64,000 nucleotides of DNA from contig CAWDZM010000001.1 in the NCBI GenBank assembly GCA_963807165.1, positions 507,590 through 571,589 on the forward strand, in the 5' to 3' direction. A program made the position numbers and the translations under genes. The notes under the pieces are model-generated. The model did not search any database. It had not been told where the DNA came from and saw nothing but the letters and a program-made list of their open reading frames with translations. Position 1 is the stretch's first letter, and each line of letters begins with the position of its first letter. This document shows, piece after piece, positions 25,956 to 49,542 of the stretch. Source of the DNA: an uncultured bacterium (lineage in GTDB: Bacteria; Patescibacteriota; Minisyncoccia; UBA6257; 2-01-FULL-56-20).

Positions 25956-26042
25956 TCGAAGATTATGGAGGCGGGAGTCCGTTATATAAATAAATTTTCA
26001 CCAATCCCTACTTGGCAGCAACCAGCAATGCCTTCATCTCTT

Positions 26043-26288
26043 TTATTCATGTATAAAAAATTGGCCGATAAACGATCCGCATTTGGGGCAGGTATTTGCC
26101 AAATAACTTTCATTTAAAGTTTTGCTGAATTTCTTTTCAATCAAGACTCCTGCGTCCCTTGCAAATCCAAGTTCGCTTTCAGTAAAAGTTTCTGGCCCAG
26201 ATATCCCGATCATGGCAATTTTCATCGGAGCACTACAGGCTCGGCATTTGGATTCAACAATTTCTATTTGATGACTTGTATTCTCCAT
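26043..26288 (-). CDS. hypothetical small zinc-ribbon protein
   Basis: 81 aa with CRAC...CPKC; last gene of the minus-strand operon. Confidence 0.3.
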   Translation of the reverse strand: MENTSHQIEIVESKCRACSAPMKIAMIGISGPETFTESELGFARDAGVLIEKKFSKTLNESYLANTCPKCGSFIGQFFIHE

Positions 26289-26294
26289 AGTGAT

Positions 26295-27080
26295 TTAGAC
26301 TACATATTTACCTGCGTGCAATTGTTTTGATTCTTGCGGCGTAGCATAAAAAACATTTGTCCCCTTTCTGATGGTAACTCTTCCATCGTAGTGATAGACA
26401 TCTTTGCGATTCCAAGGCGGAATTAGGATTACCATAATCGTATGACCGACGATTTGTTTTTCTACAATTCTAACGGAGATGGATGGAGAGATTTGATTCC
26501 GAATACTATTTTGTAAAGACTGATCTAAAATCTGACGCTTTTTGTCGGAATCACCAATAGTTCCATCATCTTCTATCCCATAAAATATGAGTCCTCCTAG
26601 CTTGGTATTTGCGAAGGCACAAATCTCCTTTGATAAAACCTTCATCTCTACTCCGACTTGTTTAAACTCGTATATCTGATCTTCTCCATGGTTACAAATA
26701 TCTAAAATCTCTTGCTCCGAGGGTAAATGTATGCCGGAGCTGTTGTCCCTGGTAGAATTTTTTCTTTCCTTAGGAGAAGTCCGCGCTGTTTTTGTGTGGT
26801 CTTTTAAAACCGATTTACTCAGATGTTTCAAAATCGGGTTCTTCTCATAAATAATCGAATTCGCTTTTTTAACGACCCCTTTTTCATCGGTAACGGCTCT
26901 GATAATCTCCATATCTTTCATTGCCGCTAGATCATCTAGCGTCGCAGAAAACGGCCGCCCACTCTTTACGGATATTTCTTTAGCCGAAAGCTTACCGTTT
27001 ACCAAATCGAATGTAGCCTCTCTTTTAGGAGAATTACCAAATAATATTCTCGCCCTACTAACAAGTTCTTGAAGGTCCAT
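26295..27080 (-). CDS. AlbA_2 / Schlafen-like (divergent AAA) DNA-binding domain protein
   Basis: C-terminal DQIYEFKQ...KEICAFANTKLGGLIFYGIEDDGTI matches the AlbA_2 pattern E.K...A.aNt.GG.l..Gv.d.g. Confidence 0.45.
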   Translation of the reverse strand: MDLQELVSRARILFGNSPKREATFDLVNGKLSAKEISVKSGRPFSATLDDLAAMKDMEIIRAVTDEKGVVKKANSIIYEKNPILKHLSKSVLKDHTKTARTSPKERKNSTRDNSSGIHLPSEQEILDICNHGEDQIYEFKQVGVEMKVLSKEICAFANTKLGGLIFYGIEDDGTIGDSDKKRQILDQSLQNSIRNQISPSISVRIVEKQIVGHTIMVILIPPWNRKDVYHYDGRVTIRKGTNVFYATPQESKQLHAGKYVV

Positions 27081-27084
27081 ATTT

Positions 27085-27603
27085 TTATGGAATTAATGTC
27101 GTAATCGTTGCTGTTTGGTCTAAAAAATACATTAACTGCCGAACATCTTGATAGAGGACGTCTATTCTTTTTTGATCATTCTTATTAGGAAAATTCATAT
27201 GAGCAACAATATTTCTTGGCAAACGGATAGCGTCTATTTTGACTAACCATTGGTCTATATCCGGAACAACAGTTCTTAAAAGATGAGCGCTTGTGCGTGC
27301 GATCTCATTAAGATCATACAAATCAGTGTAGTAAATATCGTGCCTTCCGGGTTTAGAATGCCACGGTCGAGATGCATACATAGGTTTAAATCCATTGATC
27401 TTTCTTTGCATGGTTGGATCAACAACTAAAGCCCACCAACCATTTCCAAGTTGAGCTAGCAGAATAGAATGGATCAGAACTCTATAATAATTTTCGACGG
27501 CATATAACTTCCAGTAAGCTCCACGGCCGATGCCCAATCCACTCTTTCTTACATTTTCCAGCGTAAAACCGGAAAGAGTTCTGAAGTCTTGAATCGCAGC
27601 CAT
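27085..27603 (-). CDS. HEPN-domain protein, Abi_2 (AbiD/AbiF)-like
   Basis: LPRNIVAHMNF contains the HEPN R-x4-H motif in the RN..AH form seen in Abi_2-type abortive-infection proteins. Confidence 0.4.
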   Translation of the reverse strand: MAAIQDFRTLSGFTLENVRKSGLGIGRGAYWKLYAVENYYRVLIHSILLAQLGNGWWALVVDPTMQRKINGFKPMYASRPWHSKPGRHDIYYTDLYDLNEIARTSAHLLRTVVPDIDQWLVKIDAIRLPRNIVAHMNFPNKNDQKRIDVLYQDVRQLMYFLDQTATITTLIP

Positions 27604-27825
27604 TTAAGCTGTCCCTTTTTTCTTGGTCGATTTCTTCTTCTTGGTTTGATATATCAACGAAGCAATAGTCTGCCCCGAAGTTTCAAGATAATTTGCGATC
27701 TCCAAGTTGTTGAATCCGGCAAGATTTAAAATTCGAACCTTTTCGGCCATATTGGATCCCTTTAAAGAATTCAAAAGAATCATCACTAAAAGACTTTCGA
27801 TTCTGTCTGTATCACTTTCTTTCAT
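27604..27825 (-). CDS. small HTH protein, paralog 5 of a tandem array
   Basis: 73 aa; C-terminal RILNLAGFNNLEIANYLETSGQTIASLIYQTKKKK (sigma70-r4/LuxR-like HTH plus Lys tail). Confidence 0.45.
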   Translation of the reverse strand: MKESDTDRIESLLVMILLNSLKGSNMAEKVRILNLAGFNNLEIANYLETSGQTIASLIYQTKKKKSTKKKGTA

Positions 27826-27832
27826 ATTTTTA

Positions 27833-28045
27833 TTATTTCTTTTTCGATCCCCTCGACCCTAACGCTCGAACTGTTGCCGGAGTAGTATTGAGGATTTGGG
27901 CAATCGTGTCGTTATCTAAGCCAGCCAACCTTAAAAGATATACTCTTTCAGTAATGCTTTTCTCGGAAGCGACTTGCAAGCCAAGAACTTTCAAAATCTT
28001 CTCCAATACATCTATTATTTTTTCTTGATCCGTGAGTTTTGCCAT
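27833..28045 (-). CDS. small HTH protein, paralog 4 of a tandem array
   Basis: 70 aa; VYLLRLAGLDNDTIAQILNTTPATVRALGSRGSKKK. Confidence 0.45.
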   Translation of the reverse strand: MAKLTDQEKIIDVLEKILKVLGLQVASEKSITERVYLLRLAGLDNDTIAQILNTTPATVRALGSRGSKKK

Positions 28046-28056
28046 TTAATATTGTC

Positions 28057-28260
28057 TTATTTTTTCTTCGACTTTTTTGATTGATTTAAAAGACTGGAAG
28101 CGGCATTACTTGGTATATCAAGAATGTGAGCGATTTTTGCTATTGAAAAGCCGACTTCAGAAAGCTCGGCGGTAATTTCTGTTTTTGTCTTACTTCCTTT
28201 AAAGCCCCACGCTAAAATGCGGCACACATCTTCAAGAGAAAATTCTTCTTGATCCTTCAT
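28057..28260 (-). CDS. small HTH protein, paralog 3 of a tandem array
   Basis: 67 aa; ELSEVGFSIAKIAHILDIPSNAASSLLNQSKKSKKK. Confidence 0.45.
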   Translation of the reverse strand: MKDQEEFSLEDVCRILAWGFKGSKTKTEITAELSEVGFSIAKIAHILDIPSNAASSLLNQSKKSKKK

Positions 28261-28261
28261 G

Positions 28262-28495
28262 TTATTTTTTCTTATTTTTCCTGATGGCGTGCAAGGCCAC
28301 GTTCACAGTATTTGGAGTGGTTCCCAAAAGTTCGGCTATCCTCTTAGGCTTAAATCCCACAGAATCCAGTTCTTTAATTAAAGTAACTTGCCCCGTCCCC
28401 CGCTTGAGCCATACAGTAAGAAGCTTCACCACCTCTTCCGAAAATATCTGATTGGTTTGTTCCATTGTTTTATTTTTGTTTACGAGCTCTTTCAA
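28262..28495 (-). CDS. small HTH protein, paralog 2 of a tandem array
   Basis: 77 aa; ELDSVGFKPKRIAELLGTTPNTVNVALHAIRKNKKK. Confidence 0.45.
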   Translation of the reverse strand: MKELVNKNKTMEQTNQIFSEEVVKLLTVWLKRGTGQVTLIKELDSVGFKPKRIAELLGTTPNTVNVALHAIRKNKKK

Positions 28496-28742
28496 GAGCT
28501 TTTTGAACGGCTGACAATTTTTTACCAGTAAGTTCTGCTATCTCGACTGACTTCAATCCTGCACTGGCGAGGAGGAGTTCGAGCTTAGGAGCTTGGCTTC
28601 TGTCCACTTCTCCAAGTTCTCTGTTTCTACTGTCAATTAAAAGAGAAGCTATCACAGCAAGCTTTTTTTCTATGTTTTTTAATGTTTCTGCTTCGTTCAT
28701 TGTAAAATAATTAGTGAATTTACCGACATTTTTTCCCATCAA
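28470..28742 (-). CDS. small HTH protein, paralog 1 of a tandem array
   Basis: 90 aa; LLLASAGLKSVEIAELTGKKLSAVQKALERARKQK. First gene of the operon. Confidence 0.45.
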   Translation of the reverse strand: MMGKNVGKFTNYFTMNEAETLKNIEKKLAVIASLLIDSRNRELGEVDRSQAPKLELLLASAGLKSVEIAELTGKKLSAVQKALERARKQK

Positions 28743-28969
28743 ACCTTATTCTATATAGGTTTCTAAAGATGATATGTCCATCTCCACTAATTGTCAAACA
28801 GCAAAAATCAATGGAATTTACAATAAAAGCTCATTATCTTATAGTTAAGCGAGTCACGCGTCGCAGATGCGATCAGAAGAGTAAATCAAACGGTAAGAAA
28901 AGAAACTGGGATTGAGGAACTTATCCACCACGAAAAATCAAACTTCTGGATAAGATAGAATTCCGATAT

Positions 28970-30511
28970 TTACTTTAACGTGTCCTTCACAACTAACGGC
29001 TCGCGCCCTTCTATAAATTTGTCGTATCCAAATTCTCGATACGTTTTAAAAATAAGCATCTGCTCCTTTGTCTCAAGATCTCTTCCGGGAAAATCTCGCT
29101 TGATATTTGAGGCGTCTTCGTCCGAAATAATCCTCTGTGCGATTTGTCCAATAACGCCATCGCCTCTTTTATAATTTGTGCCCACATTCATACCGGCTCC
29201 ATTTGCGAATGGAGCCTTCGCGCGGAAGGCTGTCGCCTCAGAAAGATAGTTCAACGCTATCTTTCTAAAAATGAATTTCGTAAAGATCTCATTGCCGTAC
29301 TTCCCTACTTTAATCGATCCATCTATTACCATAGCAACGTCGACGAGCGCCTTATCAAAAAATGGGCATCGTATCTCAACCGTATGTCGCATTGCCATCT
29401 TATCAATCCTCATAAGATTTCCCCTCGACATGGACTTTAAAAGTGCCTTGCATCCTTCGTTGATTCGAAGAGGATTAATATCAAGAAATTCATTATATCC
29501 CCCAAATATTTCATCAATGCCTTCTCCAGTAAGCACAATTTTAAATCCCAGATCATGGGCATATTTTGAAAGTATATTGTTTGCGAAGGAGTGGCGAACA
29601 ATATTTGGATCGTAGCTTTCGACAAAATAGATAATATCCGACAGTTCCGCTTCATAATCAATTTTGGGCTCGATAGATTTATATTTCCATCCTTTCTCTT
29701 CGCACAACTTAAGAGCGCTGATGTAATCCGGAGAATCTTTTTCTCCGAGGATAAGAGCCGTAACGTCACCGTGAAAACGCGACGCTAATTCCATAACCAT
29801 ACTGCTATCCACGCCGCCACTCAAAAATATGGCGATCGGAAGATCGGTTTGAACTCTTTTAAACACGGCCTGTTCAATAAGATGCTTTAGTTCATCAAGG
29901 TTAATATCTTTAACCTCTCCGATTTTGATTTCATAATATGAAACGAATTTGCCCTTATAGAAATAGTGCCCCGGAGGAAATTCGTGAATCTCATTCAAAT
30001 CTTCAAAGCAAACAAGCGCCTTAATCTCTGACGCAAAAAACATCGTTCCGTCTTCATCATAAGCGTAATAGAGCGGCTTAACTCCGATGCGATCACGTGC
30101 CGCGAAAATTTCTCCGCTTGTCTTGTCAAAAATAATGAAGGCGAACATTTCGGAATCCAACTCAGAGATCAGCGCCTCCTTTTTATCTTCCCAAAGGTGG
30201 GTTAACACTTCCGTATCTCCATGAGTCCTAAATACATGCCCCTCCCCCTTTAACCTTTCGGCGATAGCACCGAAATTAAAAATCTCGCCATTTAGAATAG
30301 CAAAAATCGTTCCGTCTTCATTCTGCTGAGGCTGTTGCCCGAAGGCTTCATCAACGATAGCGAGCCGATTTGCGCCGAGAGCCACATGATCCAAAACGAG
30401 GTGCTCAAATTGATGCTGAGGCTCGCCCCGGTGAGATATCTTAGACAACGATAAGCGGAGTTTTTCCTCTTTACCATCTGCAGTTCCGACAATAGCGACG
30501 ATGCCACACAT
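28970..30511 (-). CDS. asnB: asparagine synthase (glutamine-hydrolysing) family protein
   Basis: N-terminal MCGI (Ntn nucleophile Cys2), glutaminase domain, and the SGGVDSS PP-loop of the synthetase domain; 513 aa. Confidence 0.8.
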   Translation of the reverse strand: MCGIVAIVGTADGKEEKLRLSLSKISHRGEPQHQFEHLVLDHVALGANRLAIVDEAFGQQPQQNEDGTIFAILNGEIFNFGAIAERLKGEGHVFRTHGDTEVLTHLWEDKKEALISELDSEMFAFIIFDKTSGEIFAARDRIGVKPLYYAYDEDGTMFFASEIKALVCFEDLNEIHEFPPGHYFYKGKFVSYYEIKIGEVKDINLDELKHLIEQAVFKRVQTDLPIAIFLSGGVDSSMVMELASRFHGDVTALILGEKDSPDYISALKLCEEKGWKYKSIEPKIDYEAELSDIIYFVESYDPNIVRHSFANNILSKYAHDLGFKIVLTGEGIDEIFGGYNEFLDINPLRINEGCKALLKSMSRGNLMRIDKMAMRHTVEIRCPFFDKALVDVAMVIDGSIKVGKYGNEIFTKFIFRKIALNYLSEATAFRAKAPFANGAGMNVGTNYKRGDGVIGQIAQRIISDEDASNIKRDFPGRDLETKEQMLIFKTYREFGYDKFIEGREPLVVKDTLK

Positions 30512-31267
30512 ACATCGATTTTATCAGTTTGATCGGGATTAATGCAACCTGAAACATCGTTTTGAGCGCGACTCATTCTGACTCGCGCTGTTTCATAGCC
30601 TGACATATTAGGCTGGTCGAGAAGCCTATTTAAATGTCACTACTTCCTGAACAAAAGGTCGAGCAAACCGAGCCCTTCGCGGAGCTCTACGATTATATCC
30701 GAATAATCGCAAGTATATGCGAAGGGCTCAATCAAACTAATGGAAATAAAGAAAGAACCCAAGATGGAGAAGAACGATTACTACGAAGCTCCAAGCCAAG
30801 TTCTGATAAATCCCCCATCACAGTCTTCTTACCCACGACGTCAAAGAGCTACTCAATTGCTCGACCACGTGGGCGTTGAAAACAATGAGGATACTGGAGG
30901 CCCTAGGGCTAGTCAGGATAGGCTCGAGCGATGATAACTTCAATGAAAGCTATATCGTTCTCAAGACAGAATTTGACTGGCTTTTCGCAGTCGATCCCAA
31001 CGCTGACCCGAACGAGAGGCCGATGGTTTAAACAAAATCCGACCCTGTGTATACGACAACTATCTCACATACGCAGGGTCGAATCGAGTTGAAAGATCAC
31101 AATAATAAAAAAATACATGAAAACGAAAACCGAAATAAAAATAAAGCTCGATATGACACGTTTAATGCTCATACGCGACCAGTCCAAGATTGAAACTCTA
31201 CGCTGGATGTTGAACGAAGATGAGGAAATGATCCGCGAGGCAGTTACGCTCGCGGCAGAAAACCCTG

Positions 31268-31320
31268 ATAAATGATTTATATATTCAGCTTAAACTAATG
31301 GCGGTAATGTCCTGATGACA
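31268..31320. repeat. ~53-nt direct repeat, copy 1
   Basis: aaatgatttatatattcagcttaaactaatggcggtaatgtcctgatgaca is ~85 percent identical to 33068-33120. Confidence 0.6.
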
Positions 31321-31335
31321 TAGAAAATACAAAAT

Positions 31336-32901
31336 CTAAAGCTGAATCCCCGGCCCCTGACCACCTCCGATATTGATGCCTATCGGTCCATTGGGTGGCG
31401 CGATTTCTTGGAATGGAACTCCTAAGAACGTGGCTACTTGATTGGCGATTGCAACTTCCTTTCCAGAGCCTCCCATCATTACTGCTGGGCCAATAGACAT
31501 ACTTGAAGAGCTATTTTGATGGTCTAAGGGCAGCTCCTGTCCGCTTTTAAAAACAATGACCGATTGTGAGACGAGCACCTGACGAGGCATGGAGACACCC
31601 CTTTCTGAGGAGGCATTATTGTTTTCCATCTTCCATGACTTCCTTGTTTCAATACGCAGGACATCCGCAACTGCATAGGTCGCCGCGCTTCCCCCAATCA
31701 GGCGCTTAGTTTGATAATTGATTTGCCCGCTGGTCTTATTGGCGTCTACCGTTATAGATGCACTTAAGAATATAAGTGCGAGGCCGACAATAAACACTCC
31801 GATGGCAATCCAGAGAGCAACGGAAGGAGAGAATTGTGAATAGAATGCGACACCGATACCAACAAGAACGAGTACGATTCCCGCTATAATCCCTTTTGCA
31901 TCACCTTCCTTGAGCACCAACTCGTCTGCGGTCTGACTGACTATTTTCATAATTATTGTTGTTTGAAAGTTAATGTAGCTTCGTTCGAGGTTGACCCTTG
32001 CATGATCTGAATGTTTGTTATGGTCATTGTCATAACCGACCACCGTCGCCGGTTGATTAATATTGAGCGCTACTGTGGCACTCTGTCCCGTTGCATGATT
32101 CGTCACCGTCATCGTAACTTGGGAGATGTGCACAGCGCTTACATTAAACTCAAGATTATTAAACTTCGCATCGCTCGGCGCGGTAAGAGTTGCGGTACCG
32201 CCATAGACCTGCGCGAGACCACTTGCCGGAGTAGTCGTTACATTAATATTGGTGTTACTAGGAGTAGACTTTGAGGTGCAATTTCCCGGAGTAAAAGCAT
32301 TAACACTGATAGATCCTTTCGACCAATTAGTGAGCAGTGAGACGAGGACACTCGGCGTAAAGGTGCAAACACTCGTCTGCCCCGCAGACTGATTTGCTTC
32401 ACCTTGCACCTCCTGCTGGGCCTGCGCCGCAGTCAATCCTTGTGCTTCCGCTCCAGATAAGAATTGTGATGTTACGATTCCTGTCGCGCTTACGGCATCA
32501 TCGGAGAAGATGCACTCGCCCGACCCATTTGACCCTTTTATAGCAAGTTGCGATTTAACGCTTTCAGCGAACAGCGTTGAAACATCAATGGTTCCTGTAA
32601 ATGCAACGGTAGCTGGAGAACATTTTTGAGCGGCGGCGATGAAGCAGTTCATGTTGGCACCGCAAGCGCCTGAGGTGGGACTTGTTTTCGTCTGCGTGGT
32701 GGTCGGAGTTTTTGCAACGGCAACGGGAGCAGTCGACGTTGGCAAGGTTGACGTGCTATTGATAGATGGCAAATGCGGCACAAGCGTACTCAAACTAGTT
32801 CCACGAAAATGGTAAAGCGAGAGCCCTAAAACGACTAGGCAAACTAGGATTAAGGCACCAGCACCCAAGAGAACGGGGTCTACAAATCCTTTTCGACTCA
32901 T
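31336..32901 (-). CDS. hypothetical membrane protein with a Thr/Ser-rich extracytoplasmic region
   Basis: N-terminal TM, a T/S-rich linker, a second pair of TM helices near residues 340-385, and a Gly-rich C-terminus. Confidence 0.35.
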   Translation of the reverse strand: MSRKGFVDPVLLGAGALILVCLVVLGLSLYHFRGTSLSTLVPHLPSINSTSTLPTSTAPVAVAKTPTTTQTKTSPTSGACGANMNCFIAAAQKCSPATVAFTGTIDVSTLFAESVKSQLAIKGSNGSGECIFSDDAVSATGIVTSQFLSGAEAQGLTAAQAQQEVQGEANQSAGQTSVCTFTPSVLVSLLTNWSKGSISVNAFTPGNCTSKSTPSNTNINVTTTPASGLAQVYGGTATLTAPSDAKFNNLEFNVSAVHISQVTMTVTNHATGQSATVALNINQPATVVGYDNDHNKHSDHARVNLERSYINFQTTIIMKIVSQTADELVLKEGDAKGIIAGIVLVLVGIGVAFYSQFSPSVALWIAIGVFIVGLALIFLSASITVDANKTSGQINYQTKRLIGGSAATYAVADVLRIETRKSWKMENNNASSERGVSMPRQVLVSQSVIVFKSGQELPLDHQNSSSSMSIGPAVMMGGSGKEVAIANQVATFLGVPFQEIAPPNGPIGINIGGGQGPGIQL

Positions 32902-33067
32902 TAAATTAAGTATAGCAAATCAGACTATGAGTTTTCCATTCCGCCCAACTCCCCCATTTTCGCCGATTTCGGCAAACTCAAAATAACGCAGAGTATATAA
33001 AGAAAATCGACCTCATTGGAGATCGATTTTCATTCAAGTGGAGACGAACCGGACAGGTGGCAAACTT

Positions 33068-33120
33068 TTATAAACGATTTATATATTGCCGTAAAACTAA
33101 TGGCGGCAATGTCCTAATGA
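33068..33120. repeat. ~53-nt direct repeat, copy 2
   Basis: aaacgatttatatattgccgtaaaactaatggcggcaatgtcctaatgacc. It overlaps the stop codon of the 196-aa gene. Confidence 0.6.
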
Positions 33121-33704: not shown

Positions 33705-33718
33705 AGGGTCAGATTCGG

Positions 33719-34216: not shown

Positions 34217-34249
34217 ATGCGTGAAGATCGGAGGCGGTTATATAAAATA

Positions 34250-38957: not shown

Positions 38958-38960
38958 ATT

Positions 38961-41328: not shown

Positions 41329-41347
41329 TATCCACCACCCTAGAAAG

Positions 41348-41584: not shown

Positions 41585-41592
41585 AAACTAAT

Positions 41593-42081: not shown

Positions 42082-42082
42082 T

Positions 42083-42985
42083 ATGAAAAGTTATAAGATA
42101 AATAAGTGGTTCGCTGGGATTGTCTTAGGCATCTTTGCCATATTGGTAATATGGGTGATTGGTTCAAGTATGGGACAGTCTAACCAAAACACGTCAACGA
42201 ACCCACAAGGCTCCTTAACTACTGCTCAACAAACAGGAAATAATAACCAATCGGCTTGGTACTATGTGAATTCTAACAATCAATGCGTTCAAGCGCCGGG
42301 GACTTATGAAAATGAGGACTCGTGCCAAAATGCAATGGGGTCGTCGTGTTTTCCGGACGAACCGAATTGCAATGGAATGAATCAAAGCGAAACGCTCTAC
42401 TACATCAACTCTTCAAATCAATGTGTTTCTGCTCCGCATAATCCTTATTCTATTACGCTAAGCGATGGAACAACGGCTGGAGTTATTGGGCAACAATATA
42501 ATTGCGAGCAAGATGTGGGCTATTCATGCTACACCGAAAATACCTGCGGAGGGGTTGGGCAACCCGGCGTGATTGTCATTAAGGGAGTTTCATACAAATT
42601 AGTAACCCTTAACGATCTTGAGAACAATCTTAACAACCCCGGTTTTGTAAATGGAACTGGCACCGTAAGTTTGGTTGCAATTCAAGGAACACTTAAGGGA
42701 ATCGTTCAAGAAAAGGACGGAACAGACTACGACTTAGTTATTGATACTGGAGGCGGTTACATCCTTGATAGTGCCGGAACGATCGATGTGAACACAAAAG
42801 CATCAAATGGATTTGATCCATCAAGTTTGTCCATTGGAACAAACATCACAGCTGGCGGAGCATTTATCGGTGGTTTATTCACTCTAAAGGATATCCTCCC
42901 AACAGAGCCAGAATTAAATTCTCTTGGACTTCCATCCAACACCATCGTGCTAGTGAATGGCCTCGGGGATGTCGAACAAAAGTAA
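42083..42985 (+). CDS. hypothetical secreted Cys-rich protein with an internal repeat
   Basis: N-terminal TM; two repeats YY(V/I)NS(N/S)NQCV(Q/S)AP; many Cys. Confidence 0.3.
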   Translation: MKSYKINKWFAGIVLGIFAILVIWVIGSSMGQSNQNTSTNPQGSLTTAQQTGNNNQSAWYYVNSNNQCVQAPGTYENEDSCQNAMGSSCFPDEPNCNGMNQSETLYYINSSNQCVSAPHNPYSITLSDGTTAGVIGQQYNCEQDVGYSCYTENTCGGVGQPGVIVIKGVSYKLVTLNDLENNLNNPGFVNGTGTVSLVAIQGTLKGIVQEKDGTDYDLVIDTGGGYILDSAGTIDVNTKASNGFDPSSLSIGTNITAGGAFIGGLFTLKDILPTEPELNSLGLPSNTIVLVNGLGDVEQK

Positions 42986-43161
42986 TAATTTATGTACCGC
43001 TGACTTCCAAGAAATACTTGCCTAAAGCTTCTGCCCCGGTTATCAAAGAAATTGAAAAATTGAGTATCTCAACTTTTCAGCGAAAGCCTGCGAAATTCTT
43101 TAACTCAGGTATCTAGGAATACATACGAACGTGCCTTTGATTATTTCATCAAGCTTGGGCG

Positions 43162-43890
43162 TTGTATAATACTAAGGTGAACAATCTAGTTGAATTGATA
43201 TCAAACTCATTCCCTAAGGCCGCTTCAAAATTAAGAGAGTCGGTCTATGGTATTAAGGCGCAGACACCGAATAATTCTGTGGTCTCCATGGGAACCGCAT
43301 TTATGGTTGCGCCGGGGGTTTTATGTACGGTGGCACACGTTCTATACCAAGGTGGAGATTTTACCGCGCCGAGGTACACAACCTTTTTTGTCATAAAAGC
43401 TTCAGAGGTAGGACTGCCGTTCCAAATGGAAACGTGTACATTTATAGGCGAAGATACCATAAAGGATATCGCATTGCTCAGGATTGAAAACCCAAGGTCA
43501 AAAAGTTGCGTTGCCCTCGAGACTTCAAAAGTAGGACGAGGGACGGCATGCGGATCATTAGGATTTCCTTTGTCGAATATAAGTCCAGCCGGAGTGTTTG
43601 AACTGACAGAAAGATTTCAGGGTGCGCATATTTCCGGATATTTTCCCGTCAATTTAAATAATTGGGATTCTTTCTATTACGAAACGGATTCTCTTATGTA
43701 TCCCGGATCAAGCGGCTCTCCGGGATTTCTTATTAATGGAAAAGTATATGGCATGCAAAAAATGTCGCATCCCCACGCTAGTATACCCGGGAGCAATCAG
43801 AGTCAAGCAACAGATAGAGTGGCTATTTCTCGTTGGGTTTACGCCAAAGATATCGTCGACGTTGCACAAGCAAACAATGTTTTGATTTAA
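43162..43890 (+). CDS. trypsin-like serine protease (S1 family)
   Basis: CTVAHV (His), DIALLRI (Asp) and GSSGSPGF (GDSGGP-type Ser) catalytic triad contexts. Confidence 0.5.
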   Translation: MYNTKVNNLVELISNSFPKAASKLRESVYGIKAQTPNNSVVSMGTAFMVAPGVLCTVAHVLYQGGDFTAPRYTTFFVIKASEVGLPFQMETCTFIGEDTIKDIALLRIENPRSKSCVALETSKVGRGTACGSLGFPLSNISPAGVFELTERFQGAHISGYFPVNLNNWDSFYYETDSLMYPGSSGSPGFLINGKVYGMQKMSHPHASIPGSNQSQATDRVAISRWVYAKDIVDVAQANNVLI

Positions 43891-44127
43891 CTTGGTTGAA
43901 AAAGGGATTCTTTCTCGCCACTAAACAGTTCGCCATTGTGCTAAAACTGACGCTATAGGCTCTTTTAGGCATCCATAAAGGAATAATGAGATCGAGCGGT
44001 GGGCTTTTCGTGTACGACAGCTTACGGCTTGAATTATGCTCAAAAAGTGATATTTTATAGGTACTACCTGCCGTGTACGTGAAAATCACAATGAAAACAG
44101 ATACTCGGTTTTAACGGAGTTGATCAA

Positions 44128-44937
44128 ATGAAGCTGACCAGGCAATCAAAACTTTCCACCAAACGAGACTCTGATGATTATCTTTTCGACGACGAGCCGG
44201 ATAATGTTTTTAATTTTACGACATATAAGAAAGTTAAGGAGCGGTGGCTGAACCTTAAAGAAAGAAGGCTTTTCCAAAATCTTGTTGCGTCATTCCGTAA
44301 AAATATCGGGATCAGCATAGGCGACCCCTCAGTTCGCAAGAATTCATTTTTTGGAGGAAGAACAAAAGCTGCTAACAAGCGCAAGAAATTGCTGAACGAC
44401 TTTAAAGTGAGCCTTAAGCGGGAATTGGACGTCGACACATTTTTATTAGGAACAGCGGAATCTTTTCTGCTCTATGGGGAAAACGGCGATCCATATGATC
44501 CGTCCATAATATATGACCCCCTGGATCAGCCCGGTGGCACTTTTATAATCAACACAGGCCACCCTGTTCAAATGACAATACGCCCTGGAGCATCCCAAAA
44601 AGACGTTCTTGATAGTTTAAAAGGTCTATGGCCGATGATCGAATTAGCATCCCGCGTAGCTTCTCCGAAACGGTATGGGACAAAACGTCTCAAGATGAGA
44701 CATAAACGAAAACGAGACGATCAACTCGAACAACTTAGGGCAAATAAAGTTATTACATCAGGTGGCGATGTTGATTTTGGTAGGGCTCGTGAATATTTGC
44801 GCTCTAAAGGAATAGTTCTGACATCTACACTCCGACCGGCAGTTGAAAAGGCATTTAAAGAAATTGACATTGAACTCCCGCGCGGATGGGCTGCCAGAAA
44901 GGCAGTCATAACGACGAGAAGACGTAAGATCAGTTAA
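44128..44937 (+). CDS. hypothetical basic protein
   Basis: 269 aa, Lys/Arg-rich, no motif. Confidence 0.25.
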   Translation: MKLTRQSKLSTKRDSDDYLFDDEPDNVFNFTTYKKVKERWLNLKERRLFQNLVASFRKNIGISIGDPSVRKNSFFGGRTKAANKRKKLLNDFKVSLKRELDVDTFLLGTAESFLLYGENGDPYDPSIIYDPLDQPGGTFIINTGHPVQMTIRPGASQKDVLDSLKGLWPMIELASRVASPKRYGTKRLKMRHKRKRDDQLEQLRANKVITSGGDVDFGRAREYLRSKGIVLTSTLRPAVEKAFKEIDIELPRGWAARKAVITTRRRKIS

Positions 44938-45135: not shown

Positions 45136-46665
45136 ATGAACGACGAAAACACAAATGAACAAGGCGAAAAGAAGCGGTCTTTGGCCGACCGACTCATGGA
45201 GTGGCTAGACGGGGTTGAGTTCTTCTACGATCAAGACGAACAGTGCTATGCCGCGATCGAACGAGACTCACGACGTGAAATTCATCGAATACGATCAAGA
45301 CAATTCCAGAGCTACCTCTCGCACCTTTCATGGGAGCACCTTAATATGGCACTCCCTAAGACAGCGAAGGAAAGTATTTCGGACACACTGGAAGCGATCG
45401 CGCGGTTTAATGGCAAGCAATATGACCTCAATCTGAGAACTGCATGGCAGGGCAATGAGCTCTGGTACGATTTGGGCGACTTTAGGGCAGTAAAGATCAC
45501 GAGTGAAGGTTGGCGAGTGGTCAGGAAGCCGCCGATCCTCTTTAAGAGATATCACGATGGTGTCCAGTGCGTGCCGGAACCGGATGGCGACATTAATACG
45601 ATCTTTGAGTTCTTCAACCTTGATCGCGCGGAGGGATTCGACGAAGCGAAGCTCCTCATGATTACTTATCTGGTTACGGCTCTCATTCCGGACATCGCGA
45701 GGCCGGTTCTCGAATTAGAGGGATCACAAGGCTCCGCGAAATCAACAACAGCAAAGCTGATTAAAGATCTGATCGATCCCTCCATTATGGAATCAGTGGC
45801 CATGCATCGCGACGTCCAACAGATGATCCAATTGTGCGATCACAACTACTACATCGCCTTCGACAACCTATCGCGATTAAGCGACGAGCAAAGCGACGCA
45901 ATTTGTCGAGCGTGCACCGGAGAAGGGATGAACAAGAGAAAGCTATTCACGGATAGTGAAGATATCTTTTACCACTATAAAAGACTCATCAGCTTGAACG
46001 GCATCAACTTGGTGGCACGAAAACCTGACCTTCTCAACCGAGCGCTCACCTTTGATCTCGAGCCGATCCCAGCGGAACGACGAATGGAAGAATCTGTGCT
46101 CCGAAAGAGGTTCAGCGAGGCAAAACCGAAACTTCTCGGCGCGATGTTCACAATCCTCTCCAACGCAATGGCTGTTAAAAGAAAAGGAGACATCACTATG
46201 AAAAAGGAACATCGGCTGACGGACTATCTCATGTGGTCCGGCAGAATAGCTGTGGCTCTCGGCCTGACACCTGAAGACTTTCTCAATGCCTTTAGGGGAA
46301 ACATTCAAACCCAAGACGATGAGGTGCTCGAAGGAAGTGTATTGGCTCAAACCATCGTCAAGCTCGCACACGAGCTCGCGGTTGAGCGGACAAGTTACAC
46401 CCCCGAGGATCTTTACCAAAAGTTGAAGTCCTACGCAGGTCCGTTTGAATCGGATGGATACAGCGACTTCCCTGGCCGTTCGGGATGGCTGTGGAAGAAG
46501 ATTAAGATCATACACGCCAACCTGACGGCAATAGGCATTGACGTTAGACATAGCCCAAGTACCAAACGTCCGAGAGAAATTGAAATTGTGATCAATAAGA
46601 AATTGCTACGAGGTAATGACGGTACTGACCATGCTGACCAAAGCGGAAAGCTATTGCCGCTTTAG
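45136..46665 (+). CDS. P-loop NTPase, putative replication/primase-associated (VirE/D5-like) protein
   Basis: LELEGSQGSAKSTTAKLIKDL is a Walker-A-like segment. The 509-aa architecture recalls plasmid/phage VirE or D5-type proteins. Tentative. Confidence 0.3.
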   Translation: MNDENTNEQGEKKRSLADRLMEWLDGVEFFYDQDEQCYAAIERDSRREIHRIRSRQFQSYLSHLSWEHLNMALPKTAKESISDTLEAIARFNGKQYDLNLRTAWQGNELWYDLGDFRAVKITSEGWRVVRKPPILFKRYHDGVQCVPEPDGDINTIFEFFNLDRAEGFDEAKLLMITYLVTALIPDIARPVLELEGSQGSAKSTTAKLIKDLIDPSIMESVAMHRDVQQMIQLCDHNYYIAFDNLSRLSDEQSDAICRACTGEGMNKRKLFTDSEDIFYHYKRLISLNGINLVARKPDLLNRALTFDLEPIPAERRMEESVLRKRFSEAKPKLLGAMFTILSNAMAVKRKGDITMKKEHRLTDYLMWSGRIAVALGLTPEDFLNAFRGNIQTQDDEVLEGSVLAQTIVKLAHELAVERTSYTPEDLYQKLKSYAGPFESDGYSDFPGRSGWLWKKIKIIHANLTAIGIDVRHSPSTKRPREIEIVINKKLLRGNDGTDHADQSGKLLPL

Positions 46666-46999
46666 GATAATATCCGTCGGTACCGACAGCACCGACAGTA
46701 AAATTAAGACAATAAAAGAAATGAAAGAAATTAAAGTTGACATACTGAAGTGGTATGAATTCTTACACCAGCGCGATAAGCGACGATACCAGCAATTTAT
46801 GCAACGGCATCGCGATTTAATGTCTCACCTCCTGATGGAAGCATTTCCCGGAATGATAGTTAATTCGGAAAAGGCTCTGGCAGAAATATTTTTCCTTGCG
46901 ATGGCGAGGAAGATTTCGCCAGATAAGATCGCTTCTCCTCTGGAAAAGCGAATTAAGCGAATCATCAGGTATAGCCTGCAAAATAAAGCCTGTTCATAG
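46616..46999 (+). CDS. hypothetical protein upstream of the recombinases
   Basis: 127-aa ORF overlapping the end of the upstream gene. Could be a small regulator. Confidence 0.2.
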   Translation: MTVLTMLTKAESYCRFRIISVGTDSTDSKIKTIKEMKEIKVDILKWYEFLHQRDKRRYQQFMQRHRDLMSHLLMEAFPGMIVNSEKALAEIFFLAMARKISPDKIASPLEKRIKRIIRYSLQNKACS

Positions 47000-47068
47000 C
47001 CGTCCTTAGAAAACGGAGTTGGGTCTCTTAAGATTAAATTATAAGTAAATAATTTAATCCCACATCCA

Positions 47069-47812
47069 ATGCAAAAATTCTTCGCATATTGCAGAACCAG
47101 CACAGAGAATCAACGCGAAGAAAAGACGATAGATCTACAAGTTGAAAACCTGACGCAGTATGCGAAGAAGAACGGCATCGAAATTACCGACTGGTTCAAG
47201 GACGATGGAGTAAGCGGCGGACTGGAACACCGACCGGAATTAATGCGGTTAATGAAAGGCTTGGAACAAGACAGCGAAGCGGAAGGGGTGTTGATCTACA
47301 AACTAGATCGCCTCGCTCGTGATCTTTACATCCAAGAGGGCTTGATCAGAGAGTTCTCGAAGCTTGGGAAACAAATCATCTCCACATTGGAGCCAGATCT
47401 TGATAGCAACGATCCATTCAGAAAAGCCTTCCGTCAGATGCTTGGGGTATTTGCTGAATTTGAAAAAGCGATGATCACCTTGCGGATGAAGAACGGCAGA
47501 GATAGTGCGGTTGCCAAAGGCGGATGGCATGGTGGAAGCATCCTCGGCTACAAGCATAAAGACGGCCACCTCATTATTGATCCAATAGAAGCAGAGGTAG
47601 TCAAACGAATATTTGACCTCCGAAAGAAAAAGAAAATAACACCAAAACAAATCGCAGAATTACTAAACAACGAAAATGTCCCAACAAAACGAAAGACCAC
47701 AAAGTGGCATAGTTACACAGTTAAAAAGATTCTTGGAAACGGTCTCTACCGAGGGAAGATCCGTTATAAAGGGAAAACCTATGATGGCAAGCATGAACCG
47801 ATCATCCAATAA
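47069..47812 (+). CDS. serine recombinase, truncated (resolvase catalytic plus partial recombinase domain)
   Basis: YCRTSTENQ (catalytic Ser) and LDRLARD motifs. It ends at ...GKHEPIIQ, before the zinc-ribbon and coiled-coil regions found in large serine recombinases. Confidence 0.65.
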   Translation: MQKFFAYCRTSTENQREEKTIDLQVENLTQYAKKNGIEITDWFKDDGVSGGLEHRPELMRLMKGLEQDSEAEGVLIYKLDRLARDLYIQEGLIREFSKLGKQIISTLEPDLDSNDPFRKAFRQMLGVFAEFEKAMITLRMKNGRDSAVAKGGWHGGSILGYKHKDGHLIIDPIEAEVVKRIFDLRKKKKITPKQIAELLNNENVPTKRKTTKWHSYTVKKILGNGLYRGKIRYKGKTYDGKHEPIIQ

Positions 47813-49269
47813 TCAATTTCTTGCTTATGTGCGGGTCAGTTCAAAAGACCAAAGCCGTGGCGCATCGCTTGATGAGCAAAGATCCCGCATTGAGGAATAC
47901 GCTCGCAGAAAAGAAATCTTCATCGTTAAATTCTACGGCGAAGTAGAGTCGGCATCAAAGACAGGCCGAGAAATATTTGACGATATGATAAAACGCCTAA
48001 AAAAAGAGCACCTCGGAGGAATTATCTTCCACAAGACCGACCGAAGCGCACGAAACCCAAGAGATCAAGCTCTCCTCTACGAACTCATGCAGGAGGGATA
48101 TGAACTTCATTTCGTTACCGAAGGGATCTCGACGAACGATCATTCCGGTAGGAACCTCATTTACATCATGTGGGGTCTCGCCAGTGGATATAGCGAGAAT
48201 CTTAAAAATGAGATTAATAAGGGAGTTATTGGACGACTCAAACAAGGCAAGTGGCCACTTCAATCCCCTGTCGGCTATATGAGAACTGGCAACATTAAAG
48301 ATTGCATAAAAGGGATTGATCCGATCAAAGGCCCACTCATTAAGAAACTCTTTGAGGAGTACGCAACTGGAAGGTACTCGGTTCAAGAGCTTGGCCCTCT
48401 CTCTAAAAAAATCGGACTGACCAATAACAATGGTGGCTCTCTCGGTAGAGATTCTCTCCATAACATCCTTCGCAATCCGTTTTATTACGGCCTCCTAAAA
48501 CACAAATACGGCACCTTTCCGGCAGAGCATGAGCCTCTTTTTTCCAAGACGCTGTTCGATAAGGTGCAGTATGTTCTTAAAGAAAAAGGGTTCAAAAAGA
48601 GCCGGGAATTTGGGTACAGCTTTAAAGGCCTCCTGAAATGCCAAATATGTGCCCGACGGATGAAGGCAACCACTGCCAAAGGGAAGTATCACTACTACCA
48701 CTGCCGTGATTGGAATTGCGGAGTAAAAACGGTAGCAGAAATAAAACTGGAAGCTGATTTCATCGAAGCATTAAAAGGGTTGGAGTTTTCGGACGAAGAA
48801 GCGCATATGTTTAAACTGGCGATCAACGCCTTTCGTGGCACAGTACAAAAAACACAGACCGATATGGCTACCTCCCATACGCTTGAAATCAAAAGCATCA
48901 AAGCGAGGTTAGAAGGCCTGTTCCAGAAAATATATGGAGCAAAAGGTGGATGATGAAACCTACAACAAAGCCCGAACTCAGCTGTTAAATCGGGAAATAG
49001 ACCTCAAAGAACAAATCGCCGTATTAGAAAAAACAGACGGCAACGCATTCAACGAGATGGATGAATTGGTCAAACTCCTGAAAAATCCGGCGCAGGCATA
49101 CGAAAAAGCCGATCCAGTGAATAAGCGACGATTGCTGATTTCTATGGTGGCAAACTTAACACTACACGATAAAACGCTAGTAGTTACTTGGAAAAAACAC
49201 TTTGAGGTGGTCGCAAATCGACCAAAATTAAATTCAAGTGGAAGCGGGCGGAATCGAACCGCCGTGTAA
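47781..49269 (+). CDS. large serine recombinase, C-terminal coiled-coil in the +1 frame (frameshift near 48936)
   Basis: MMASMNRSSNNQFLAYVRVSSKDQ (catalytic Ser), recombinase domain, and zinc ribbon CQICARRM...HYYHCRDWNCG. Frame 0 stops at 48953, but the coiled-coil continuation YMEQKVDDETYNKARTQLLNREIDLKEQIAVLEK... reads on in ORF 48934..49269. Confidence 0.6.
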
Positions 49270-49542
49270 AGATAATGCCGATGGGCCGTCTACGAGTGTA
49301 GTTTAGCTAGGCTAAGCGAAGTGATCATATTTTCGCGCCGGGCGTATGATCGTCAACCTGACGCTAGTCTCCTTATATAAGACCGGTATCAATCCAAGAG
49401 ACCCGGACTGGCCGATCCCGCACGGTTACGCGAAAGCGAAAGCGCGCGGAGCTGCAACGTTAGAGTTGGCAGTTATAGGTTGTGCAGCGATAACGACGCT
49501 GCCAACGACTCGCAAACCCACGGATTATCTTTATCGAAGCCA
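49239..49542 (-). ncRNA. ssrA: tmRNA (ssrA)
   Basis: Minus-strand RNA: 5' GGGAGCG pairs with 3' CGCUUCC-A, giving a G3-U70 wobble (Ala identity element). T-arm GGCGG-UUCGAUU-CCGCC. 5' region GGGAGCGCAUUGGCUUCGAUA resembles tmRNA 5' ends. Candidate tag ORF ...GCC AAC UCU AAC GUU GCA GCU CCG CGC GCU UUC GCU UUC GCG UAA (ANSNVAAPRAFAFA). ~304 nt, CCA not encoded. Confidence 0.55.

What the first reader, a model, noticed from the sequence alone, without database searches (positions are those of the whole stretch)
25966..49542. ~23 kb AT-rich island inserted at the 3' end of tmRNA, with a degraded direct repeat at the left border
Base composition drops sharply right after the stop codon at 25955 and recovers after ~49300. 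The right border is the tmRNA gene: its 3' end at 49239 is overlapped by the last recombinase ORF. tggaggcgggag at 25966-25977 matches the tmRNA 3'-terminal tggaagcgggcg at 49239-49250 (10 of 12) in direct orientation, as expected for an attL remnant of an element that integrated into ssrA. The island carries defence-like operons, a replication module and two serine recombinases.
Basis: partly seen in the sequence, partly recalled or inferred. Interest (0 to 1): 0.55.

Follow-up and report, generated by a model that had tools for sequence, protein, structure and literature searches.

The report
Serine-recombinase island array at tmRNA
A small-genome candidate-phyla-radiation bacterium carries, just after its tmRNA gene, a stack of foreign DNA elements inserted by a pair of serine recombinases and loaded with anti-phage genes; the same kind of element was described in Dehalococcoides in 2011, so this is a real but not unprecedented mobile island.

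Summary
GC is 0.42 across 25966-49237, against 0.52 (sd 0.02) in the flanks. A full-length tmRNA gene lies at 49238-49552 (- strand), and a recombinase ORF runs 31 nt into its 3' end. A 98.7%-identical strain (L001) loses homology exactly at 49238 and carries a different recombinase island there.

The region is not one 23-kb island but a tandem array. The newest element, E2 (33032-49237, 16.2 kb), is flanked by a perfect 11-bp repeat, ATTCAAGTGGA. Its two ends are found joined, attP-like, in another species (L022). Older recombinase-less remnants fill 25966-33031.

The two recombinases are a conserved pair, short (247 aa) and long (495 aa). The long one is broken here by one extra A.

Homologues sit head-on against tmRNA or many different tRNA genes. 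Their reading frame spans the attachment site, so integration swaps the C-terminal tail. E2 carries a type I CBASS system, a DnaB-like helicase and the orphan LOOT RNA, which recurs in these islands.

The closest precedent is the Dehalococcoides ssrA islands (DsiA/DsiB). Novelty: new member of a known kind.

The parts
49238..49552 (-). tmRNA (ssrA) gene, the integration target. The acceptor 3' strand and discriminator A are followed by C and then island sequence, so CCA is not fully encoded.
   Evidence: ARAGORN; Rfam RF00023, 108.4 bits, full length; sequence.
49232..49242 (+). Right copy of the 11-bp perfect direct repeat ATTCAAGTGGA (junction next to the tmRNA). The last 5 nt are the complement of the tmRNA 3' end.
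   Evidence: blastn overlap of the two L022 matches; sequences; homology with L001 ends at 49238.
47781..49269 (+). Long serine recombinase (LSR2, 495 aa once repaired). It is split by one extra A in the A4 run at 48927-48930. Its stop codon lies inside the tmRNA gene.
   Evidence: Pfam Resolvase + Recombinase + Zn_ribbon_recom. Full-length homologues are 484-506 aa. Removing one A restores a frame colinear with P0002. P0003 (91% identical) reads QKYMEQKVDD in a single frame.
47069..47812 (+). Short serine recombinase (LSR1, 247 aa: catalytic domain plus a partial Recombinase domain), the conserved partner of LSR2.
   Evidence: Pfam. Orthologues 67-73% identical lie directly upstream of the long recombinase in L082, L085, L086 and L087.
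45136..46999 (+). 509-aa protein with weak DNA-primase similarity, plus a 127-aa ORF, just upstream of the recombinase pair.
   Evidence: PHROG phrog_47, E 2.5e-5. A 35%-identical homologue lies directly upstream of the recombinase in L088. Proteins of 454 and 489 aa occupy the same position in L082 and L085, but they gave no tblastn match at E <= 1e-5, so positional correspondence only.
41348..44937 (+). Rightward cargo or unknown genes: YidD-like, OB-fold/tRNA_anti-like (Sie-like), 300-aa, trypsin-like peptidase, 269-aa.
   Evidence: Pfam; PHROGs; no homologues in related loci.
40201..41112 (+). DnaB-like helicase, C-terminal ATPase domain only (303 aa).
   Evidence: Pfam DnaB_C, 4.8e-52; NCBIfam and PHROG DnaB-like matches.
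40005..40140 (+). LOOT RNA (Rfam RF03000) in the divergent intergenic region. A near-consensus promoter lies at 39964-39992 (+), a divergent promoter at 39883-39910 (-), and a terminator-like hairpin at 40164-40184.
   Evidence: Rfam 84.7 bits against a gathering score of 46.4; own covariance model 132.7 bits; promoter and terminator scan.
33114..39838 (-). Leftward cargo operon: 77-aa, 215-aa, 933-aa HATPase_c_3/sigma70_r4/DnaA_C protein, CD-NTase (SMODS+AGS_C, 34818-36155), SLATT_4 2TM effector (34250-34834), 165-aa, 196-aa. The cyclase and effector make a type I CBASS.
   Evidence: Pfam; PADLOC cyclase PDLC00796 386.5 bits and 2TM effector PDLC00696 223.4 bits; NCBIfam MzaA-like sigma region.
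33032..33120 (+). Left end of element E2: the 11-bp repeat (33032-33042) followed by 24 codons in frame with LSR2 plus two stop codons (DEPDRWQTFINDLYIAVKLMAAMS**). These codons join the recombinase only in the circular form.
   Evidence: 87% identity to L022 6110-6199, where the segment is fused to the recombinase 3' end. Translation of the reconstructed joint. The same in-frame tail follows a GTGGAG core in L008, L004, L006 and L082.
31262..32901 (.). Older remnant (E1): a tail-type left-end fragment at 31262-31319 (TLINDLYIQLKLMAVMS**) plus a 521-aa ORF of unknown function (31336-32901, - strand).
   Evidence: 60-nt direct repeat 31260-31319 / 33062-33121, 82% identical; translation; no family hit for the ORF.
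25966..31261 (.). Oldest AT-rich block (E0), with no recombinase. It holds Schlafen AlbA_2 (26295-27080) with a PDC-M34B-like protein (27085-27603), three small sigma70_r4-type HTH proteins, and an AsnB-like amidotransferase (28970-30511).
   Evidence: GC 0.38-0.42; Pfam; PADLOC.
25966..25977 (+). It begins with the TGGAG core seen at all left ends. Plausible outer boundary, not proven.
   Evidence: 2 hits observed, 0.34 expected.

Best explanation
The interval 25966-49237 is a tandem array of integrative, non-phage elements. They entered one after another at the 3' end of the single tmRNA gene of a Patescibacteria (Paceibacteria-like) bacterium. Each was inserted by a large serine recombinase working with a short serine-recombinase partner.

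The newest element, E2 (33032-49237, 16.2 kb), still has the recombinase pair at its tmRNA-proximal end. Crossover occurs in or next to GTGGA, the complement of the tmRNA acceptor end, so the tmRNA body stays intact.

The long recombinase gene spans the attachment site. In the circular form it ends with a conserved roughly 25-residue tail encoded at the far (left) end of the element. After integration that tail is replaced by about 10 codons read from the complement of the tmRNA. Each new arrival pushes the earlier element away from the tmRNA, and the earlier ones then decay. This left the recombinase-less remnants E1 (about 31262-33031) and E0 (25966 to about 31261).

E2 carries a type I CBASS system (CD-NTase plus 2TM effector), a DnaB-like helicase with a primase-like protein (possibly for replication of the excised circle), and a promoter-driven LOOT RNA.

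Shown directly: the boundaries at 49238 and 33032-33042, the recombinase pairing, the frame across the joint, and the t(m)RNA-gene association of the clade. Inferred: the order of events, any activity, and any function of the tail, LOOT or the replication genes.
For: - Right boundary: L001 is 98.7% identical over 9.5 kb and diverges exactly at 49238. Beyond that point it carries a different island with recombinase fragments convergent on the tmRNA.
- Hotspot: related species keep Nramp...tmRNA synteny with 2.3-5.3 kb between them, and the content differs in each.
- Left end of E2: L022 6008-6120 is 93.8% identical to window 49130-49242 and is directly fused to 6110-6199, which is 86.7% identical to window 33032-33121. 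The 11-bp perfect repeat lies 16,200 bp apart.
- Frame across the joint: both the reconstructed window joint and the L022 joint read on to the same double stop, with conservative substitutions. Five further left ends show a GTGGAG core plus the in-frame W[QK]TLVx[ED][LV]Y motif, with synonymous Leu and Val codon changes in the distant copies. Remote homologues carry the motif as an intact C-terminus.
- Target specificity: the recombinase stop lies inside the tmRNA in L082, L083/L084 and L086. L082 has a perfect 16-nt repeat of the tmRNA end, delimiting a 9.55-kb island.
- Clade behaviour: ARAGORN called a convergent tRNA gene at the recombinase 3' end in 25 of the 71 metagenome loci that have at least 120 nt of downstream sequence, and in 3 of the loci with less (28 of 80 in all). 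Twelve isoacceptor types are represented, and the ORF usually ends inside the tRNA gene.
- Tandem precedent: an array at tRNA-Ala in L167.
- Recombinase integrity: the catalytic Ser/Arg columns are invariant, and the only defect is one extra A.
- Cargo.
- Published precedent with the same architecture: PMC3146451.
Against: - No empty site and no excised circle were observed for this species, so mobility is inferred.
- The outer left border rests on GC and a 10-of-12 match that is not significant alone.
- Sequence to the left of 33032 is not significantly similar to the recombinase 3' end once the 11-bp repeat is excluded (score 18 against a shuffle mean of 17.9). The idea that E2 landed next to an older related element therefore rests on the L022 analogy and on the 31262 remnant.
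- An 11-bp repeat alone could arise by chance at roughly the 5% level (my estimate).
- Pairwise codon differences among the close tail copies are 27 synonymous to 90 non-synonymous, close to neutral. The coding constraint on the tail is supported mainly by the distant copies and by remote homologues.
- LSR2 is frameshifted in this assembly, so E2 may be immobile now.
- No repeats of 11 nt or more were found within 10 kb in the tRNA-associated loci.
Confidence: 0.75

Rival explanations
1. One reading: one 23.6-kb island (25966-49237) integrated in a single event, with TGGAGGCGGGAG as the decayed attL copy of the tmRNA 3' end.
For: GC is uniformly low across the whole interval. The 10-of-12 match sits within 11 nt of a host-like ORF's stop, at the composition boundary. 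It begins with the TGGAG core shared by all left ends.
Against: The L022 joint and the 11-bp perfect repeat place the end of the recombinase-bearing element at 33032-33042. A second left-end-type sequence lies at 31262-31319. The 12-mer is not above chance on its own. Tandem arrays are documented for this recombinase clade.
Confidence: 0.12
2. A degraded prophage of a candidate-phyla-radiation phage that uses a serine integrase.
For: Serine integrases are common in phages, and the best PHROG for LSR1 is an integrase family. A DnaB-like helicase, a primase-like protein and a Sie-like OB-fold protein are phage-like. Several ORFs have no known function.
Against: Pfam or PHROGs gave no capsid, portal, terminase, tail or lysis hit for any ORF tested. 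The recombinase has at most 30% identity to any record in 50,697 phage genomes. E2 is only 16.2 kb. Related islands carry unrelated cargo, with only the recombinase module conserved.
Confidence: 0.06
3. The region is a hypervariable chromosomal locus shaped by general recombination or assembly error. On this view the recombinases are resolvases or invertases unrelated to the boundaries.
For: The interval between Nramp and tmRNA differs in every related species, including a host-GC segment at 23475-25965. The window probably comes from a metagenome-assembled genome; the recombinase protein P0001 is on record from a 726-kb contig held by NCBI and ENA.
Against: The break is nucleotide-exact at the tmRNA end in a 98.7%-identical strain. 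The recombinase-to-t(m)RNA-gene arrangement recurs in dozens of unrelated contigs. There is a perfect 16-nt repeat in L082. Independent contigs cover both flanks at 99-100% identity.
Confidence: 0.04

Closest known systems
[quoted passage not shown] 2011, PMC3146451)
   Same: Both integrate at the 3' end of the single-copy tmRNA gene. Both place a roughly 500-aa large serine recombinase next to ssrA with a small serine recombinase directly upstream. In both, the recombinase ORF overlaps the attachment site and stops only inside ssrA or the neighbouring island. Both form tandem arrays that include recombinase-less members, have low GC, carry variable cargo and have a primase-like protein in the module (compared).
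   Different: The host is Patescibacteria rather than Chloroflexota. The repeat is short: 11 bp, of which only 5 nt are tmRNA, against 20 bp in Dehalococcoides. No RecF-like, ParB or Mom genes and no embedded tRNA-Gly-like element were found (Pfam; ARAGORN). Instead there is a LOOT RNA and a DnaB-like helicase. The cargo is CBASS and other defence genes rather than reductive dehalogenases. Orthology of LSR2 with DsiB was not tested.
SCCmec CcrA/CcrB cassette chromosome recombinases
   Same: Two co-transcribed serine recombinases mobilise a non-conjugative, non-phage cassette into the 3' end of a conserved single-copy gene. CcrB is the best NCBIfam match for both LSR1 and LSR2.
   Different: The scores are far below the equivalog cut-off (95 and 80 bits against 900). 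The target is tmRNA, not rlmH (orfX). LSR1 is 247 aa, whereas the NCBIfam CcrA model is 442 positions long.
[quoted passage not shown]
   Same: The same target gene and sublocation (the 3' end), the same preservation of the target gene, and the same tendency to form tandem arrays and carry defence cargo.
   Different: No tyrosine recombinase is present (Pfam). [quoted passage not shown]
Type I CBASS (CD-NTase plus 2TM/SLATT effector)
   Same: The cyclase has SMODS and AGS_C domains, and the adjacent SLATT_4 two-transmembrane effector overlaps it in the same operon.
   Different: It is preceded in the same operon by a 933-aa HATPase_c_3/sigma70_r4/DnaA_C protein that is not part of canonical CBASS. 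No activity was tested.

Membership tests
ssrA-specific serine-recombinase islands (Dehalococcoides ssrA-GI type) | Integrated at the 3' end of the tmRNA gene, leaving the gene intact | tested here: met
   The tmRNA is full length. Strain-level homology breaks at 49238.
ssrA-specific serine-recombinase islands (Dehalococcoides ssrA-GI type) | Large serine recombinase adjacent to ssrA, with an ORF that overlaps the attachment site and stops inside ssrA or the next island | tested here: met
   The LSR2 stop at 49267-49269 lies inside the tmRNA. The same holds in L082, L083 and L001. PMC3146451 describes this for dsiB.
ssrA-specific serine-recombinase islands (Dehalococcoides ssrA-GI type) | Second, small serine recombinase directly upstream (DsiA-like) | tested here: met
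   LSR1 is 247 aa and is conserved as a pair in L082, L085, L086 and L087. Unlike the description of DsiA, it retains part of the Recombinase domain.
ssrA-specific serine-recombinase islands (Dehalococcoides ssrA-GI type) | [quoted passage not shown] | tested here: inconclusive
   E2 has an 11-bp perfect repeat, of which only 5 nt are tmRNA. The outer 10-of-12 match is not significant alone. Relative L082 has a perfect 16-nt repeat.
ssrA-specific serine-recombinase islands (Dehalococcoides ssrA-GI type) | Tandem arrays downstream of ssrA, including members without an integration module | tested here: met
   There are two left-end-type sequences (33032-33120 and 31262-31319) and AT-rich blocks without a recombinase. 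L022 and L167 provide analogues.
ssrA-specific serine-recombinase islands (Dehalococcoides ssrA-GI type) | Remaining integration-module genes (RecF-like, ParB, Mom with embedded tRNA-Gly-like element, primase-like protein) | tested here: not met
   Pfam, NCBIfam and PHROG scans gave no ParB, Mom or RecF hits. No extra tRNA-like gene was found. Only a weak primase-like hit exists, for the 509-aa protein.
ssrA-specific serine-recombinase islands (Dehalococcoides ssrA-GI type) | Sequence orthology of the recombinase with DsiB | not tested
   The DsiB sequence (ACZ62382) could not be retrieved with these tools.
Tyrosine-integrase tDNA islands (Islander definition) | A tyrosine recombinase (Phage_integrase) gene within the island | tested here: not met
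   None of the 28 island ORFs scanned matched Phage_integrase.
Prophage | Virion structural and packaging genes | tested here: not met
   No capsid, portal, terminase or tail families were found.
CBASS type I | CD-NTase cyclase plus an adjacent effector, with no Cap2/Cap3 or HORMA/TRIP13 accessories | tested here: met
   Cyclase PDLC00796 at 386.5 bits and 2TM effector PDLC00696 at 223.4 bits. Pfam gives SMODS, AGS_C and SLATT_4. No accessory families were hit.
LOOT RNA (Rfam RF03000) | Score at or above the curated gathering threshold over the full model | tested here: met
   84.7 bits against 46.4, covering model positions 1-121 of 121.

The most novel reading that the evidence does not exclude
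In a large, mostly uncultured clade of serine integrases that target the 3' ends of tmRNA and many tRNA genes, the integrase gene is deliberately built across attP. On this reading, integration removes a conserved C-terminal helix (GG-x6-R[TW]-[WL]xx[LV][LV]xxL) and excision or tandem stacking restores it. That would give the element a built-in sensor of its own state that sets recombination direction. The orphan LOOT RNA, which recurs in these islands behind a strong promoter, would be a functional part of the same element, for example in control or priming of replication of the excised circle.
Probability: 0.3. Interest if true: 0.7.

Novelty: new member of a known kind. Interest (0 to 1): 0.5.

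Why it matters
The finding places the paired-serine-recombinase type of tmRNA island in Patescibacteria, whose genomes are about 0.7-0.9 Mb. This type has so far been described only in Dehalococcoides. Here the array makes up roughly 3% of the chromosome and supplies CBASS and other defence genes.

The survey made on the way shows that relatives of this recombinase sit head-on against at least twelve different tRNA genes as well as tmRNA. That bears on a standing statement in the island literature that serine integrases are not known to use t(m)RNA genes, or do so only rarely.

It adds sequence evidence for the 2011 suggestion that the recombinase is complete only on the circular element. It also gives the orphan LOOT RNA its first genomic context.

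Tried and rejected
1. LOOT as a guide RNA for target choice. The longest shared or complementary words between each island's LOOT and its own target t(m)RNA gene end (5-7 nt) are no longer than for non-cognate pairs. Rejected.
2. An extended remnant of an older recombinase 3' end to the left of 33032. This is not above chance once the 11-bp repeat is excluded. The claim was dropped.
3. Empty-site search. Exact-protein look-ups of Nramp, the lipoprotein and the 130-aa ORF are not on record. The Fur look-up gave only a 2.3-kb contig that ends at 25123. No empty site was found.
4. A metagenome scan with the single LSR2 protein found nothing. A scan with the alignment succeeded.
5. Distal repeats in the tRNA-associated loci. 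No convincing repeat of 11 nt or more lies within the 10 kb available.
7. Phage and plasmid collections hold no close relative of the recombinase: at most 30-31% identity.
8. A simple regex for t(m)RNA-gene-derived C-termini in database homologues found 46 of 113. The pattern is rough, so this serves only as supporting colour.
9. My first placement of the frameshift, in the A-run at 48941-48944, was revised to 48927-48930 after comparison with P0003.

Full report
**Observation**

The composition shift is real and large. GC is 0.42 over 25966-49237, against 0.516 and 0.520 in the flanks. No 2-kb window inside the interval (maximum 0.479) reaches the outside mean of 0.518 (sd 0.020).

A complete tmRNA gene lies at 49238-49552 on the - strand (ARAGORN; Rfam 108.4 bits over the full model). 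The foreign DNA lies downstream of its 3' end. ORF 48934-49269 runs 31 nt into the tmRNA gene.

But 25.8 kb of sequence yields two such hits where 0.34 are expected from shuffles, and the other hit lies inside a gene. Only its position at the GC boundary speaks for it.

**Host and locus**

A scan with the flanking Nramp protein places the window in Patescibacteria. The closest relatives are Paceibacterota/Parcubacteria-type assembled genomes with chromosomes of about 0.83-0.88 Mb. The recombinase protein itself is on record from a 726-kb contig.

In related species, synteny runs from Nramp (window 22197-23474) to the tmRNA and beyond. The stretch between them is 2.3-5.3 kb with different content in each species. 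In the window it is 25.8 kb.

A contig from a 98.7%-identical strain (L001) is colinear from 58763 down to exactly 49238. It then continues into a different island that also begins with serine-recombinase fragments reading into the tmRNA. This fixes the right boundary to the nucleotide and shows the site is a strain-level hotspot.

The segment 23475-25965 has host-like GC and carries Fur and lipoprotein genes. Most of it (up to 25123) is present at 99.8% identity in another sample. No contig with an empty site could be found.

**The recombinases**

LSR2 homologues are 484-506 aa and align over 96-100% of the joined sequence. A 91%-identical relative (P0003) reads QKYMEQKVDD in one frame where the window has an extra A in the run 48927-48930. 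ORFs 47781-48953 and 48934-49269 are therefore one 495-aa large serine recombinase carrying a single-base indel. That indel is either a homopolymer sequencing error or a recent mutation.

The upstream 247-aa protein (LSR1) is not a truncated pseudogene. Orthologues 67-73% identical sit in the same position in L082, L085, L086 and L087. The catalytic Arg, Ser and Gln columns are invariant in the family alignment.

**Where the recombinase-bearing element ends**

In another species (L022), a 113-bp remnant that is 93.8% identical to the LSR2 3' end (window 49130-49242) is fused directly to a sequence 86.7% identical to window 33032-33121. The two window segments share a perfect 11-bp repeat, ATTCAAGTGGA, at 33032-33042 and 49232-49242, exactly 16,200 bp apart.

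Joining 49242 to 33043 continues the LSR2 frame for 24 codons (DEPDRWQTFINDLYIAVKLMAAMS) to a double stop. The L022 joint reads AEPDRWQTLVNDLYIQIKLMAVMA to the same double stop.

The same arrangement, a GTGGAG core followed by an in-frame tail, occurs in L008, L004, L006 and L082. In the three Nramp-anchored loci it lies inside the Nramp-tmRNA interval, and in all four it has the same orientation. It also occurs once more in the window at 31262-31319. Distant copies keep W[QK]TLVx[ED][LV]Y through synonymous Leu and Val codon changes. Remote homologues carry a related motif as an uninterrupted C-terminus.

I conclude that E2 spans 33032-49237 and that the older material to its left includes at least one further left-end remnant.

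Two cautions apply. Sequence immediately left of 33032 is not significantly similar to the recombinase 3' end. And among the close copies the ratio of synonymous to non-synonymous differences is near neutral.

**Target specificity of the clade**

The recombinase stop lies inside the tmRNA in L082, L083/L084 and L001, and the recombinase abuts a tmRNA 3' end in L086. L082 has a perfect 16-nt repeat of the tmRNA end that delimits a 9.55-kb island.

A metagenome scan with a 31-sequence alignment returned 80 loci. ARAGORN found a convergent tRNA gene at the recombinase 3' end in 25 of the 71 loci that have at least 120 nt of downstream sequence, and in 3 of the loci with less (28 of 80 in all). 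The genes are Arg, Glu, Ala, Ser, Asn, Pro, Ile, Asp, His, Gln and Val tRNAs, and the ORF usually stops 12-100 nt inside the gene. Several more loci show tRNA-like 3' ends that ARAGORN did not call.

L167 shows a tandem array at tRNA-Ala in which the inner recombinase has acquired the tail from the next element. Many database homologues end in peptides such as GGDAGS or GNRT, which are what the complement of a t(m)RNA acceptor and T-loop encodes.

**Cargo**

A leftward operon (33114-39838) encodes a CD-NTase with SMODS and AGS_C domains and an overlapping SLATT_4 two-transmembrane effector. Together these form a type I CBASS. They are preceded by a 933-aa protein with HATPase_c_3, sigma-70 region 4 (MzaA-like) and DnaA domain IV.

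The rightward genes encode a DnaB-like helicase (C-terminal domain only), YidD, an OB-fold/Sie-like protein, a trypsin-like peptidase and a weakly primase-like 509-aa protein.

The older block holds a Schlafen AlbA_2 protein with a PDC-M34B-like neighbour, small HTH proteins and an AsnB-like enzyme.

No phage structural genes and no tyrosine integrase were found. Only the recombinase module is shared with related islands.

**LOOT RNA**

The divergent intergenic region of E2 contains a LOOT RNA (RF03000, 84.7 bits). It lies behind an 11-of-12 consensus promoter and ahead of a terminator-like hairpin.

A covariance model built from three copies finds LOOT in nine places across about 2.1 Mb of fetched loci. 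Seven are in loci that carry a recombinase of this clade: the window, the alternative island of L001, L083, L085, L086, L088 (tRNA-Glu) and L165 (tRNA-Asn). An eighth (L054) lies on the same contig as L085, about 12.8 kb from that recombinase. The ninth (L004) lies in the Nramp-tmRNA variable interval, 5.6 kb from a left-end tail motif; no recombinase is visible within that locus.

I found no literature on its function. A guide-RNA role is not supported.

**Comparison with what is known**

McMurdie et al. 2011 (PMC3146451) described Dehalococcoides islands specific for ssrA. These have a roughly 540-aa serine recombinase (DsiB) next to ssrA and a small second recombinase (DsiA). They have a 20-bp repeat, form tandem arrays that include module-less members, and contain a primase-like protein.

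Explicitly, dsiB always overlaps the attachment site, with the suggestion that it may be fully functional only on the circular element or next to another island. The present locus has the same architecture in a different phylum. It has a shorter repeat, lacks the ParB, Mom and RecF genes, and has LOOT plus a DnaB-like helicase instead.

The island-mapping literature states that serine integrases are not known to target tRNA genes (PMC4383910). It also reports only 14 of 297 such cases, needing experimental proof (PMC7192596). The clade survey here is therefore of some interest to that field.

**Verdict**

It is composite, and its outer left border is unproven. It is a new member of a known kind. 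Interest is moderate (0.5), mainly for three things: the candidate-phyla-radiation host, the clade-wide t(m)RNA-gene targeting with an integrase gene that spans attP, and the LOOT association.

Noticed in passing
window 40005-40140 (+); also L001 16395-16540, L083 6489-6630, L085 c20040-20168, L054 c1608-1745, L004 c20806-20961, L086 4931-5054, L088 c6795-6931, L165 c5355-5488: The orphan LOOT RNA (RF03000) recurs in or next to islands of this serine-recombinase clade (tmRNA and tRNA targets) and was not found elsewhere in about 2.1 Mb of fetched loci. In the window it has a near-consensus promoter (39964-39992) and a terminator-like hairpin (40164-40184) ahead of the DnaB-like gene. A guide-RNA role was tested and not supported.
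   Followed up: partly
window 36156-38957 (-): A 933-aa protein combines an N-terminal HATPase_c_3 (MORC/MutL-like) domain, sigma-70 region 4 (best NCBIfam match MzaA of the MZA anti-phage system) and DnaA domain IV. It is encoded immediately upstream of the CBASS cyclase in the same operon. This is not a canonical CBASS component.
   Followed up: partly
L001 11336-20579: A 98.7%-identical sister strain carries a different island at the same tmRNA end. It has a different (27-31% identical) and fragmented serine recombinase, DNA methylases and its own LOOT copy. Two recombinase lineages therefore use the same site.
   Followed up: partly
L087 24-2252; window 61287-61359: A recombinase pair 51-68% identical to the window's is joined to tRNA-Arg(CCG) instead of tmRNA. 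The window's own tRNA-Arg(CCG) gene at 61287-61359 is unoccupied.
   Followed up: no
window 28095-28103: TGGAAGCGG, a perfect match to the first 9 nt of the tmRNA-end complement, lies in an intergenic gap inside the oldest block. It may be another decayed junction of the array, or chance (about 0.1 expected by my estimate).
   Followed up: no
window 49885-49990 and 52148-52225: A 38-nt-arm inverted repeat (89% complementary) lies just beyond the tmRNA, with a related copy near 52150-52225. It looks like a small repeated palindromic element of the host genome.
   Followed up: no
window 41348-41584 (+): A YidD-like gene (membrane protein insertion efficiency factor), normally a housekeeping gene, is carried as cargo inside the mobile element.
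   Followed up: no
L082 1647-1840: L082 has two core-like sites at its left end: the perfect 16-nt tmRNA repeat at 1647, and a GTGGAG core with the in-frame tail motif at about 1819. They are separated by about 170 nt of GC-rich, hairpin-prone sequence that stays open in the recombinase frame.
   Followed up: no
window 49238-49241 versus L001, L002, L008, L033: The CCA end of the tmRNA is encoded in some strains and species (L001, L008, L007) but not in the window, L002 or L033. In the window the island junction replaces it, so maturation there must rely on CCA addition.
   Followed up: no
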